From NCBI RefSeq assembly GCF_009914755.1, contig NC_060926.1: DNA of 64,000 nucleotides; one strand, written 5' to 3'. Shown in pieces: positions 60,000 through 62,964 of the stretch (positions within the stretch are counted from its first letter, which is position 1; each line of letters opens with the position of its first letter). Source of the DNA: the human T2T-CHM13v2.0 reference genome, Homo sapiens. Made by a program: the position numbers and the translations under genes. The notes under the pieces were generated by a model. The model was not told the DNA's origin. It worked only from the letters and a program-made list of their open reading frames with translations, and did no database searches.

Positions 60000-60154
60000 G
60001 CATGATGCCTTAGGAGCTGGGACAGAACTTCCACAGGTTTGTACACTGTTAACATGTCAAGACTCTCAAACAGGTCCACATCTCTCACAGCCAGCATCAG
60101 AGGGGTCAAGCCATGTTGGTTTGGGAAATTTATATCCAGGAACTCTTCAGATGC
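60000..60154 (-). CDS. MAP3K19: Hidden or cryptic 155-nt ankyrin-repeat exon (phase 0 to 2), open throughout
   Basis: Acceptor GTTTTTAAAG|GCA, donor TGC|GTGAAT; translates ASEEFLDINFPNQHGLTPLMLAVRDVDLFESLDMLTVYKPVEVLSQLLRHHA; phases fit both neighbouring exons. Confidence 0.75.
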
Positions 60155-60309
60155 CTTTAAAAACATGCAGCTTTATTTCTGTTGTGTTTTTACTGCATAG
60201 CTCTTTATGCTAATCTTTGCATTTTCATTGCTTGGCCAACGTTTCATTATAACTTCAATATGTTCTTTCTCAGTGTCTGTCCTGAAAGGGAACTGATGAG
60301 GTGAAAGAA

Positions 60310-60700
60310 CACAAGCCAGAAAGACAGATCTGGGTTTCAATCTCAGCTGCTTAAGGTGGTTATTTAACTTCCCTGACAGGTTGTATCAGGGACACCCTGT
60401 TAAAAGGTGATCAAATCACCCTGATAAATTGAGGGTATCCAGTTGAATCATGTATAATTTTCATTTGGGATGTATTTATACAAAAAACTATTTGTTGTTT
60501 ATCTGAAATTTAAATTTAACTGGGTGTCCTGTATTTTTATTTGCAAAATCTGGCAACCCTATTTGCTAAACTTCAGAGCCCTCAGTTGTAAGGTGGAATA
60601 GTAGCGTCTTCCTTGTAGGGTTATGTTGCTGATTGGTGCTAGAATGTAAAAAGTACTTAGCAGAGTGTCTAACACACAGTAGGTGCTCAGTAAACATTCA
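60310..60700. mobile_element. MIR interrupted by a MER53-like hAT element (about 60375-60561)
   Basis: ttgtttatctgaaatttaaatttaactgggtgtcctgtatttttatttgcaaaatctggcaaccct. Confidence 0.75.
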
Positions 60701-60737
60701 CTGAATGAATAAATAATTTATAATAATACAGCAGCTC

Positions 60738-61049
60738 AGCCGGGCATGGTGGCTCACACCTGTAATCCCAGCACTTTAGAAGGCTGAGGCATGTGGATTG
60801 CTTGAGCCCAGGAGTTTGAGACCAGCCTGGGCAACATGGCAAAACCCCATCTCTACTAAAAATACAAAAAATTAGCCAGGCATGGTGGCATGCACCTGTA
60901 GTCCTGGTGACTCAGGAGGCTGAGGTGGGAGGATCACCTGAGCCTGGGAAAGTCGAGGCTGCAGTGAGCTGTGATCACGCCACTGCACTCCAGCCTTGGC
61001 AACATAGTGAGACTCTGTCTCAAAAAAAAAAAAAAAAATTAAAAAAAAA
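60738..61049 (+). mobile_element. AluJb-like
   Basis: Dimer with A tail. Confidence 0.9.
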
Positions 61050-61554
61050 CAACTAACTTACCTGTATTTACATAGTCAAATGGAGGGAGGCATATGAATG
61101 TAATTTGATGCCTTAATGAAAGTAAAACTTAATTTGGATAATTCAAAACTGAAAAGCTACCGCAGGCCAAAACACCTAAATTGTTCATTTTATAGACCAA
61201 AGAAATGCACTAATTTCCATCTCTATTTCACTTTATGCCATGTAAGTATACTCAGTGTCTCTACCTCAGCTTCTCTAGGGACAAACTAGAAATAATGGTA
61301 TTACTTCAGCAGGGTACTGTGGGAATTAATTAGTTAATTTTTTTTTTTAGTCGCTAAGAAGAAACCACCTCTGATATCAATGTTTATTATTAGTTAGAAC
61401 CAATATGAAAATTTTGAACTGAGAATAGTCTTGCAATAGCATATCAATTCAGCATCTGTTGATCAAGGTATAGATCCAGTTACAGGTACCAGTTTCTTAA
61501 AACTTGGTTCCTAATGTTTAGGGGTTAAAAATGTGGCTATAAAAACAGACATTG

Positions 61555-61866
61555 GGCCGGGCGCAGTGGCTCACGCCTGTAATCCCAGCACTTTGGGAGG
61601 CCGAGGCGGGCAGATCACAAGGTCAGGAGATCGAGACCAACCTGGCTAACATGGTGAAACCCCGTCTCTACTGAAAATACAAAAATAAAATTAGACGGGC
61701 ATGGTGGCGGGCGCCTGTAGTCCCAGCTACTCCAGAGGCTGAGGTGGGAGAATGGCGTGAACCCGGGAGGTGGAGATTGCAGTGAGCCGAGATCGCGCCA
61801 CTGCACTCCAGCCTGGGCGACAGAGCAAGACTGTCAAAAAAACAAATAAACAAACAAACAAAAAAA
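61555..61866 (+). mobile_element. AluY-like
   Basis: CpG-rich; ggcgtgaacc. Confidence 0.9.
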
Positions 61867-62775
61867 CATTAGATTACAATTACAACTGCTGGAAACACCA
61901 TTAAGTAAAATACATTGTCTTTCAAAAAAATTTCTAAGCCTCAGTTCGTGATGTCTGGCAATTTTAGACTATCATTTAGTCCAACAAAAGAATTTGAAGT
62001 ATTGTTTGGTTTTGTTATATCTCTTCTTGAACTGTACCTGAGTGGAATATCTTTCACTTTTTTCTTTATCTGTTTGTGTCTTTACCATAAGGGATTAGAA
62101 GAAACTGTTTCCTAGCAGCAATTGATTTTCTTTCAGTTGGAAGGTCACATGGTCTGACAGTCTCTTTGAAGGTAAATGCCAAGAGTAGGCAATTGCCAGT
62201 CACCAATAATTAATGTCCTTGGTTATGCATATGATTTTGCAAGTTGCTTTGGGAAAAAGTATCTGTAAGTAGAAAATCTAAACACAAGGATCAATACCCT
62301 GAGAAGACAGCCCTTTAAAAATGTATCCTCTGAACTCTTTCATGACAACTAAATATTAGGCAAGGCATAGGCTCTCAGATTCCTTTTTCAGGATAAAGAT
62401 AATAACAGCAACTGGTCCAAAGGGATCAAAGCAGCAATTGTACAAATGGCAATGATGCCAAGGGAACTCCTCTGAGCAAGTTGATAGTGGTCCTCTGGAG
62501 GCTTCCTGGGAGCAAATCATTTCCCAGGGGTGTTGTGTGACTTCTAGCACCCAGCTTGAGGAAGGTGGAAATCGACTGCTCCTGTGTTCTTTTATTATCT
62601 TGTTTTCCACCCCAGTGTCCTGTTTGATCCCCTTTCTTTTTTATATGTTTTGTCTGAAACTTCCTAGGATTATATTTGAAAAGAATTTATTTTTCTTTAA
62701 AAGGAGTCATATGTAGTCTGTGCCCTTTTCACCATCCACTCACCCACCCAAAGACAGAAACAAATATCAACTAAC

Positions 62776-62964
62776 CAGTAAATGTTGAACTTGCTCAAGA
62801 TCACCTTGCCATGAACTTTGTAGAAGTTGCATTTGGGGAGCCTGGATTCTATTGACTGCCAAGAGTTGTCTTTGGATATTGCAATTAGCTACATGAATTG
62901 CGGTTCGATTGCTGTAATTGCAAAGGGTGATATCTACTCACTTTTCCAGAAGAAATCCAACAAC
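62776..62964 (-). other. MAP3K19: Upstream 189-nt exon (nominal 5'UTR) encoding ankyrin-like sequence with one in-frame TGA
   Basis: Acceptor TCATTTTGCAG|GTT, donor CTG|GTTAGT; frame 0 reads VVGFLLEK*VDITLCNYSNRTAIHVA...MQLLQSSWQGDLEQVQHLL. Confidence 0.85.

What the first reader, a model, noticed from the sequence alone, without database searches (positions are those of the whole stretch)
60000..62832. Exon B acts as a switch between a uORF and a 102-aa ankyrin-containing extension
Seen: an in-frame ATG at 62832-62830 lies downstream of the TGA (weak Kozak, CAAATGC). If exon B is skipped (A joined to C), it yields a 21-aa uORF MQLLQSSWQGDLEQVQHLLRS*. If exon B is included, it yields 19+52+31 = 102 extra residues (about 2-3 ankyrin repeats) fused to the kinase. 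Exon B has weak sites (AAG acceptor with a short pyrimidine tract; donor TGC|GTGAAT). A start-stop ATG-TAG also sits upstream in exon A. Inference: regulated inclusion could toggle between translational repression and a longer isoform.
Basis: partly seen in the sequence, partly recalled or inferred. Interest (0 to 1): 0.7.

Follow-up and report, generated by a model that had tools for sequence, protein, structure and literature searches.

The report
Relic ankyrin exons of human MAP3K19
The skipped exon is a leftover coding exon of an ankyrin-repeat domain that MAP3K19 carries in other mammals but that a stop codon has cut off in this human genome, so the proposed switch is better read as a half-lost protein domain.

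Summary
Exon A joined to exon C gives a 21-codon uORF from ATG 62832. Exon A + B + C gives a 102-residue in-frame extension of the annotated MAP3K19 start.

The context changes the meaning. Exon B (60154-60000, minus strand) is a conserved coding exon of a roughly 205-residue, six-repeat ankyrin domain. That domain heads MAP3K19 in mouse, gorilla, monkeys, marsupials and more distant relatives.

The human genome still holds the ancestral start exon, which lies 10 kb upstream and outside the window. Its frame is cut by TGA 62940-62938, where 69 of 72 relatives have Gly and gorilla has Arg. Two more human-only replacements lie upstream of the stop.

The published "untranslated exons" U2 and U3 (PMC4856290) are therefore relic domain exons. 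The 102-residue extension is the domain's second three-repeat half.

No tool here shows exon B inclusion in human RNA. The one paper found reports no alternative splicing in adult lung. A regulated switch is therefore unsupported but not excluded.

The parts
62776..62964 (-). Exon A, the published untranslated exon U3. It is the second ancestral ankyrin coding exon, in phase 0 at both ends. The first ancestral coding exon lies OUTSIDE the window and so has no row of its own. It is at L002 8824-9019, which is 72824-73019 if the window numbering is continued. Its ATG is at 72997-72995 in the context agcaagATGa. It has 58 open codons and the donor GAG|gtaaca. Its human-only codons are Tyr9 (72973-72971) and Trp44 (72868-72866). 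It is probably the published exon U2.
   Evidence: The exon A translation aligns along its whole length with residues 58-122 of mouse P0010 and with gorilla P0153. For the outside exon, tblastn gives 80% identity over 59 residues with no stop, the sequence was read, and relatives were found. Its acceptor position and its identity with U2 are inferred.
62938..62940 (-). TGA that ends the ancestral reading frame at codon 67. This position is Gly in 69 of 72 aligned relatives, Arg in the gorilla model, and a gap in 2.
62889..62894 (-). ATG-TAG start-stop pair in exon A.
62830..62832 (-). ATG equal to Met103 of the ancestral domain. It is an internal residue in relatives, kept in 60-90% of 72, and sits at the start of repeat 4. 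Its initiation context is weak.
60000..60154 (-). Exon B, the third ancestral ankyrin coding exon. It encodes the end of repeat 4 and most of repeat 5. It is skipped in the selected human transcript.
57108..57200 (-). The 5' part of exon C read in the exon B frame. It encodes 31 codons covering the end of repeat 5 and repeat 6 of the ancestral domain.
57193..57195 (-). TAA that closes the 21-codon uORF when exon B is skipped.
57105..57107 (-). Annotated human start codon, equal to Met205 of the ancestral protein. It lies at the predicted end of the ankyrin domain. Its context is weak, with T at -3 and A at +4.
   Evidence: Hub table.

Best explanation
Exon B is one of four exons that ancestrally encoded an N-terminal six-repeat ankyrin domain of MAP3K19. 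The four are the start exon at 72997-72824 (outside the window), exon A, exon B, and the first 31 in-frame codons of exon C.

In this human genome a TGA at 62940-62938 ends that frame after 66 codons. Two further human-only replacements, D9Y and G44W, lie upstream of the stop. G44W removes the invariant Gly of the best-scoring repeat.

The selected mRNA skips exon B. The old domain exons therefore appear as untranslated leader, and the kinase is annotated from Met205, exactly where the old domain ends.

The 21-codon uORF and the 102-residue extension are simply the two ways in which the still-open frame downstream of the stop can be read, without or with exon B. The extension would be repeats 4-6, a half domain.

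Shown here: the homology, the stop, the replacements, the frames and the predicted fold.

Inferred: the stop arose on the human side after the split from gorilla; exon B is now mostly skipped in human; any translation from ATG 62832 needs leaky scanning or reinitiation.
For: Homology of exon B:
- A phmmer search with the 51 exon B residues found single-stretch, full-width hits in kinases of 1249-1515 aa, with exon B at about residues 106-212.
- It also found many multi-stretch hits in long repeat-rich proteins.
- A word-indexed search gave 91 hits among 152 candidates. The named rows are nearly all MAP3K19, most are about 1500-1550 aa, most carry precomputed Pfam Ank families, and they include Mus musculus at 1515 aa.

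The ancestral frame in human:
- tblastn placed mouse residues 1-59 at 72997-72821, open and 80% identical. Residues 58-122 fall on exon A with one stop. Residues 120-173 fall on exon B, and 174 onward on exon C.
- Joining these exons inside a script gives one stop only, at codon 67.
- Gorilla isoform X3 reads Arg where human has TGA. It is identical to human over codons 68-205.

Human-only states:
- Among 72 relatives covering the whole N-terminus, only 3 of 215 human positions show a state seen in no other. These are 9, 44 (Gly in 72 of 72) and 67.

Family and fold:
- Pfam Ank_2 scores 49.8 bits in gorilla and 48.0 in mouse against a cut-off of 27.3.
- AlphaFold2 models give residues 1-209 (gorilla) and 1-215 (bat fragment P0170) a pLDDT mostly of 83-98, with six helix pairs.
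- Every listed Foldseek PDB hit but one is titled as an ankyrin-repeat protein; the exception is a phosphatase-MBP fusion entry.
- VIA-align gives Z 16.4 at rmsd 1.3 A over 92 residues for model residues 102-211 against designed three-repeat ankyrin proteins.

Literature:
- Boehme 2016 describes three upstream exons with multiple start and stop codons and no alternative splicing in lung.
Against: - No human RNA, ribosome or peptide data could be consulted, so the splicing status of exon B in human tissues is unknown.
- The hub table lists one further exon of other transcripts that it does not show. That exon could be exon B.
- Codons 68-205 are identical between human and gorilla. This is compatible with continued constraint on the downstream half, but also with chance: at the 8 differences in about 487 residues seen in the rest of the protein, only about 2 are expected.
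- Only one human assembly was examined, so the TGA and the two replacements could be polymorphic.
- No chimpanzee, bonobo or orangutan sequence was seen, so the age of the stop is open.
- That the upstream start exon is part of the human mRNA (exon U2) is inferred from exon counts, not seen.
Confidence: 0.85

Rival explanations
1. Regulated inclusion of exon B toggles the human mRNA between a form in which ATG 62832 opens a repressive 21-codon uORF and a form in which it opens a 102-residue longer kinase.
For: - Both frames exist exactly as described.
- Exon B has the weakest splice sites of the gene's exons compared, as is usual for alternative exons.
- The extension is predicted to be a compact three-repeat ankyrin module.
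- It is identical to gorilla.
Against: - There is no evidence of inclusion in human. Published lung RNA-seq reports no alternative splicing (passages only; n = 3, personal communication).
- ATG 62832 has a weak context and lies behind at least four ATGs, including a 66-codon frame with A at -3. Little flux is therefore expected either way.
- The weak acceptor appears to be shared by genomic reading frames from unnamed records (ids P0014, P0019, P0158, P0172) that read through the same acceptor. If so, it is not a human device.
Confidence: 0.12
2. Exon B is still used in some human tissue without being a switch. A 1430-residue isoform starting at Met103 is made at a low, steady level and keeps a working three-repeat ankyrin module.
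For: - Gene models that start at the same Met exist in other species. P0157 (1428 aa) starts there. P0176, P0180 and P0215 (1426-1428 aa) align from that residue.
- Model residues 102-211 superpose on three-repeat designed ankyrin proteins such as 1n0q (Z 15.6, rmsd 1.3 A, 89 residues). Such three-repeat proteins were solved on their own.
- There are no disabling changes downstream of the stop.
Against: - In the word-indexed search the only hit with 100% identity to exon B was the gorilla model. No protein named as human appeared. This is weak evidence, because the database is clustered and only 152 candidates were scored.
- The same translation obstacles apply as for the switch reading.
- Pfam does not recognise the Met103-type N-terminus above its cut-off: 18.2 bits against 27.3.
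Confidence: 0.25
3. The stop is not an effective stop. Either the TGA is polymorphic in people, or it is read through, so that a full ankyrin-bearing protein of about 1530 aa is still made in some humans or under some conditions.
For: - The start exon, its ATG and its splice signals are intact.
- Only one nonsense codon separates human from a full frame.
- Arg in gorilla is compatible with a CGA to TGA change at a CpG, a common and sometimes recent type of mutation (inference).
Against: - The selected transcript skips exon B, which would shift the full frame.
- Two further human-only replacements at conserved positions upstream of the stop, including the invariant Gly44, fit relaxed constraint.
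- The base after the TGA is G. By recall this is not the leakiest context. No test was run.
Confidence: 0.07

Closest known systems
MAP3K19 of mouse (P0010, 1515 aa), gorilla isoform X3 (P0153) and other mammals with an N-terminal ankyrin domain
   Same: The exon order and phases are the same. Exon B is 84% identical to mouse and 100% identical to gorilla. The kinase domain is the same.
   Different: The human frame is cut at codon 67, and the selected human mRNA lacks exon B. The annotated human protein starts at the residue that ends the domain in the others.
Solved ankyrin-repeat modules: designed three-repeat proteins and DARPins (1n0q, 5knh, 2xee), and the ankyrin domain of integrin-linked kinase (4hi9)
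   Same: The predicted fold of model residues 102-211 superposes at rmsd 1.3 A over 89-92 residues, Z 15.6-16.4. ILK is another kinase headed by ankyrin repeats, with Z 14.6.
   Different: - Sequence identity is only 22-28%.
- Repeat 5 carries an inserted short helix and loop.
- The two three-repeat halves do not superpose together on regular six-repeat proteins: rmsd is 7-15 A over 150-190 residues.
- A shared fold shows no shared function.
The published human gene structure with untranslated exons U1-U3 (Boehme et al. 2016, PMC4856290)
   Same: There are 13 exons. The three upstream exons hold several start and stop codons, and the first long frame starts in the exon I call C (passages read).
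   Different: The passages read do not mention ankyrin repeats, exon B, or that the upstream exons are homologous to coding exons of other species.
Loss of MAP3K19 in cetaceans (Huelsmann et al. 2019, PMC6760925)
   Same: It is a lineage-specific disabling mutation in the same gene (passages read).
   Different: There the whole gene is inactivated. Here only the N-terminal domain is cut off and the kinase frame stays open.

Membership tests
Ankyrin repeat (Pfam Ank PF00023, Ank_2 PF12796) | Sequence score above Pfam's gathering cut-off for the human extension itself | tested here: not met
   - Exon B alone scores 14.0 bits for Ank against a cut-off of 21.1, and 12.6 bits for Ank_2 against 27.3.
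- The exon A and exon C pieces give no hit.
- The Met103-type orthologue model P0157 scores 18.2 bits for Ank_2 against 27.3.
- The pieces were scanned exon by exon, which cuts repeats at the junctions.
Ankyrin repeat (Pfam Ank PF00023, Ank_2 PF12796) | Sequence score above the cut-off for the whole ancestral N-terminus | tested here: met
   - Gorilla P0153 scores 49.8 bits for Ank_2 and 38.9 for Ank.
- Mouse P0010 scores 48.0 and 39.5.
- The best stretches lie at residues 14-93, which is upstream of the human stop or across it.
Ankyrin repeat (Pfam Ank PF00023, Ank_2 PF12796) | Stacked helix-turn-helix repeats of about 33 residues that superpose on solved ankyrin proteins | tested here: met
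   - The models are of orthologues (gorilla, bat fragment), not of the human joined sequence.
- They show six helix pairs with pLDDT mostly of 83-98.
- Model residues 102-211 superpose on 5knh_D at Z 16.4, rmsd 1.3 A, 92 residues.
- Model residues 7-102 superpose on 5u0k_E at Z 15.1, rmsd 2.0 A, 91 residues.
Orthologous N-terminal domain exons of MAP3K19 | The same peptide at the same place, upstream of the same kinase, in other species | tested here: met
.
Orthologous N-terminal domain exons of MAP3K19 | An open frame from the ancestral ATG to the kinase in human | tested here: not met
   There is one stop at codon 67 (TGA 62940-62938) in the joined frame.
Splicing-dependent switch between a uORF and an N-terminal extension | The two splice forms give a short closed frame and a long in-frame extension from one ATG | tested here: met
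Splicing-dependent switch between a uORF and an N-terminal extension | Both splice forms are present in the organism and their ratio is regulated | not testable with these tools
   No expression data are reachable. The only statement found is that no alternative splicing was seen in adult lung.
Splicing-dependent switch between a uORF and an N-terminal extension | Ribosomes initiate at the shared ATG | not testable with these tools
   Only context could be read. It is weak (C at -3, C at +4) and at least four ATGs lie upstream.

The most novel reading that the evidence does not exclude
On the human side of the split from gorilla, MAP3K19 lost the first half of a vertebrate-wide six-repeat ankyrin domain through one nonsense codon. 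The second half, a self-contained three-repeat module identical to gorilla's, remains usable. It is re-attached to the kinase only when exon B is spliced in and ribosomes start at Met103. Human tissues would then choose between a bare kinase and a half-domain kinase, while the mouse used to model this drug target makes a full-domain kinase.
Probability: 0.18. Interest if true: 0.7.

Novelty: new member of a known kind. Interest (0 to 1): 0.45.

Why it matters
MAP3K19 has been studied as a drug target in lung fibrosis and COPD, partly in mice (PMC4856290 and PMC6760925, passages read).

If the human protein lacks an ankyrin domain that the mouse protein has, then partners, regulation and localisation learnt in one species need not hold in the other.

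It also gives a dated, testable case of a protein domain being lost by one stop codon while the rest of the gene stays in use. It explains why the human leader holds so many start and stop codons.

For annotation, it says that human exons called untranslated are homologous to coding exons. It also says that databases disagree on the mouse N-terminus. One holds a 1515-aa protein. A paper quotes the UniProt entry at about 148 kDa.

Tried and rejected
- A strict ankyrin motif pattern over 183 minus-strand open frames upstream of the window found nothing. The start exon escaped it, most likely because human Trp44 replaces the motif's Gly. tblastn found the exon instead.
- Foldseek with the whole gorilla model returned only kinase domains. 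I therefore folded a natural N-terminal fragment, P0170, and searched with that.
- Exon B as a repeat-derived or chance exon is rejected. It has a single match in the human assembly and is conserved in distant relatives.
- Timing of the stop could not be settled. The search with the human start exon returned gorilla as the only ape among 80 hits of 86 candidates. Chimpanzee, bonobo and orangutan remain unseen, and clustering of the database may hide them.
- Tests of selection are too weak to use. There are 3 human-gorilla differences in codons 1-67, 0 in 68-205 and 8 in the remaining roughly 487 aligned residues. These numbers do not separate constraint from chance.
- Literature searches found no text on an ankyrin domain of MAP3K19, on the human stop, or on exon B (listings or passages only):
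  - MAP3K19 + ankyrin, 8 papers. Only one was opened, and it was unrelated.
  - MAP3K19 + YSK4 + isoform.
  - YSK4 + nonsense.
  - MAP3K19 + human-specific.
  - MAP3K19 + splice variants.
  - MAP3K19 + uORF. The one paper mentions translons on mouse Map3k19 mRNA without detail.
  - MAP3K19 + stop codon.
  - The three peptide strings, 0 papers.
  - Supplements were not opened and may bear on this.
- Selenocysteine or programmed readthrough at the TGA was considered but not tested. Nothing points to it.
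Full report
**The observation**

On the minus strand, exon A runs 62964-62776 and exon C runs 57201-57086, as annotated. The proposed exon B runs 60154-60000.

- The ATG at 62832-62830 is preceded in frame by TGA 62940-62938 and followed by 19 codons to the exon end.
- Joined to exon C, the frame closes after R-S at TAA 57195-57193, giving 21 codons.
- Exon B is 155 nt. It supplies 51 codons plus a split codon.
- After exon B, exon C is read in the frame of the annotated ATG at 57107.
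- The ATG-TAG pair is at 62894-62889.
- The open frame around exon B runs from stop to stop over 59996-60172 only.

A simple comparison covered 16 exons: this gene's exons in the window plus the start exon upstream of it.

- Exon B has the poorest donor, matching 5 of 9 consensus positions. The other exons match 6 to 9.
- It has the only A at acceptor position -3.
- It has the lowest pyrimidine count among exons with an AG acceptor.
- The row for the upstream start exon was cut 2 nt off at its acceptor in that call.

**What exon B is**

Pfam gives exon B alone only a sub-threshold ankyrin match, 14.0 bits against a cut-off of 21.1.

A full phmmer scan of 1.84 billion representatives with the 51 residues gave 583 hits at E up to 0.001. 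They are of two kinds.

- Many long repeat-rich proteins matched in several stretches, each stretch over only part of the query, about residues 2-45.
- A set of proteins matched once over the whole width, with exon B at about residues 106-212.

The second set, once fetched, are kinases of 1249-1515 aa. They carry about 120 residues upstream of exon B.

The word-indexed search gave names.

- It returned 91 hits among 152 candidates.
- Nearly all the named rows are MAP3K19, from primates, rodents, carnivores, bats, ungulates, afrotherians and marsupials.
- Most are 1500-1550 aa with precomputed Pfam ankyrin families.
- They include Mus musculus at 1515 aa.

Exon B occurs once in the human assembly.

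**The human leader is a cut domain**

The exon A translation upstream of ATG 62832 aligns residue by residue with the orthologues, and the TGA sits inside that alignment.

tblastn was run with the mouse N-terminus against the window plus 17 kb fetched upstream. It placed the mouse residues as follows.

- Residues 1-59 fall at 72997-72821. This is outside the window, open, 80% identical, and the ATG is kept.
- Residues 58-122 fall on exon A.
- Residues 120-173 fall on exon B.
- Residues 174 onward fall on exon C.

The start exon has the donor GAG|gtaaca and a plausible acceptor.

Joining the four exons and the annotated coding exons inside a script gives a single stop, at codon 67. Gorilla isoform X3 reads Arg at that codon. 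New World monkeys and a lemur read Gly there. Old World monkeys read Arg-Gly across codons 66 and 67.

I aligned the human frame with 72 relatives that cover the whole N-terminus. A further 23 partial matches out of 95 were dropped; they are listed.

- Only 3 of 215 human positions hold a state seen in no other sequence.
- These are Tyr9 (63 Asp, 7 Glu, 1 Asn and 1 Gln in the others), Trp44 (Gly in 72 of 72) and the stop (69 Gly, 1 Arg, 2 gaps).
- All three lie at or upstream of the stop.
- Human and gorilla are identical over codons 68-205. They differ at 8 of about 487 aligned residues further on.

These numbers fit relaxed constraint upstream of the stop. They are too small to prove either that or continued constraint downstream.

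**The fold**

- Pfam finds ankyrin repeats above its cut-off in gorilla and mouse. The best stretches are at residues 14-93, and the best single repeat, at 44-74, is the one hit in human by both Trp44 and the stop.
- A model that starts at the equivalent of Met103 (P0157) stays below the cut-off.
- AlphaFold2 on gorilla X3 with 29 aligned sequences gives residues 1-209 block-mean pLDDT values of 74-96.
  - It shows six helix pairs at 3-33, 47-65, 80-93, 101-123, 139-170 and 185-206.
  - It is disordered from residue 210.
- The annotated human start, Met205, therefore sits at the end of the old domain, and Met103 sits at the start of repeat 4.
- A second model, of a natural 252-residue N-terminal fragment (P0170, numbering +3), has a mean pLDDT of 85.
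- Every listed Foldseek PDB hit for that model but one is titled as an ankyrin-repeat protein; the exception is a phosphatase-MBP fusion entry.
- VIA-align superposes model residues 102-211 on three-repeat designed ankyrin proteins at rmsd 1.3 A over 89-92 residues, Z 15.6-16.4.
- It superposes model residues 7-102 on another three-repeat module at rmsd 2.0 A.
- Whole-length superpositions are poor, at 7-15 A.

The extension is the second, compact three-repeat half of a six-repeat domain. These models are of orthologues. The joined human sequence itself was not folded.

**Translation logic**

Take a leader made of the start exon, exon A and exon C. Ribosomes then meet ATGs in this order.

- 73013: 3 codons.
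- 72997: the ancestral start, with A at -3, 66 codons, ending at the TGA.
- 72945: 38 codons.
- 62894: start-stop.
- 62832: weak context, 21 codons.
- 62812: 3 codons.
- 57157: 4 codons.
- 57107: the annotated start, weak context with T at -3 and A at +4.

With exon B included, the ATG at 62832 opens the extension, and several more ATGs appear inside exon B. Whatever exon B does, it acts on the small share of ribosomes that get past a 66-codon frame. The first exon of the mRNA was not examined.

**Literature**

Boehme et al. 2016 (PMC4856290, passages read) make these statements.

- Human MAP3K19 has 10 coding exons and three upstream untranslated exons, U1-U3, with multiple start and stop codons.
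- Deep sequencing of adult lung (n = 3, personal communication) showed no alternative splicing.

This matches the 13-exon selected transcript. It makes exon A equal to U3, and very probably makes the start exon equal to U2. It argues against exon B use in lung. It does not cover testis or ciliated cells, and the RT-PCR described in that paper spans coding exons only.

No search found any text on an ankyrin domain of MAP3K19, on exon B, or on the human stop. These were listings or passages only, and supplements were not opened.

Huelsmann et al. 2019 (PMC6760925, passages read) report loss of the whole gene in cetaceans. The gene therefore has a record of lineage-specific decay.

**Verdict**

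- The sequence facts stand.
- The interpretation as a regulated switch is an untested possibility, at about 0.12.
- The better-supported account, at about 0.85, is that exon B and the leader exons are the remains of an ancestral ankyrin domain. In this human genome that domain was truncated by one nonsense codon.
- Whether the surviving three-repeat half is still ever attached to the human kinase is open. The junction-read counts and genotyping listed under next steps would settle it.

Noticed in passing
window 55917-56109, minus strand: This exon of other transcripts has no AG before it (ttcac|AG), so it looks like an alternative first exon. It holds an ATG at 55989 in a strong context (aacaaaATGg) that reads in the main frame into the exon at 54290-54175. 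Transcripts that start here would bypass the whole relic leader.
   Followed up: partly
P0170 (protein): A 252-residue bat protein is named by its source as 26S proteasome non-ATPase regulatory subunit 10-like, partial. It is the N-terminal ankyrin part of MAP3K19, 88-90% identical to the human exon translations. The source name looks like a mislabel.
   Followed up: partly
mouse Map3k19 (P0010; PMC12100293; PMC13526858): Sources disagree on the mouse N-terminus. One database row gives 1515 aa with the ankyrin domain. A proteomics paper quotes UniProt E9Q3S4 at 147,916 Da, which fits a form without it. A 2026 paper lists translated regions outside the annotated coding sequence on Map3k19 mRNA. 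These might be this domain.
   Followed up: no
window 59381-59968, both strands: A long CT/GA-rich low-complexity stretch lies in the intron about 30-100 bases downstream of exon B's donor. It gives long open frames of repeated Ser-Phe-Leu or Lys-Glu-Arg. It overlaps the masked repeat at 59497-59904. Any effect on splicing of exon B is unknown.
   Followed up: no
P0014, P0019 (proteins): Two short unnamed reading frames begin like the human genomic frame across exon B's acceptor. They diverge from the conserved peptide after about 35-40 residues. This may mean that exon B is damaged in whatever genomes they come from.
   Followed up: no
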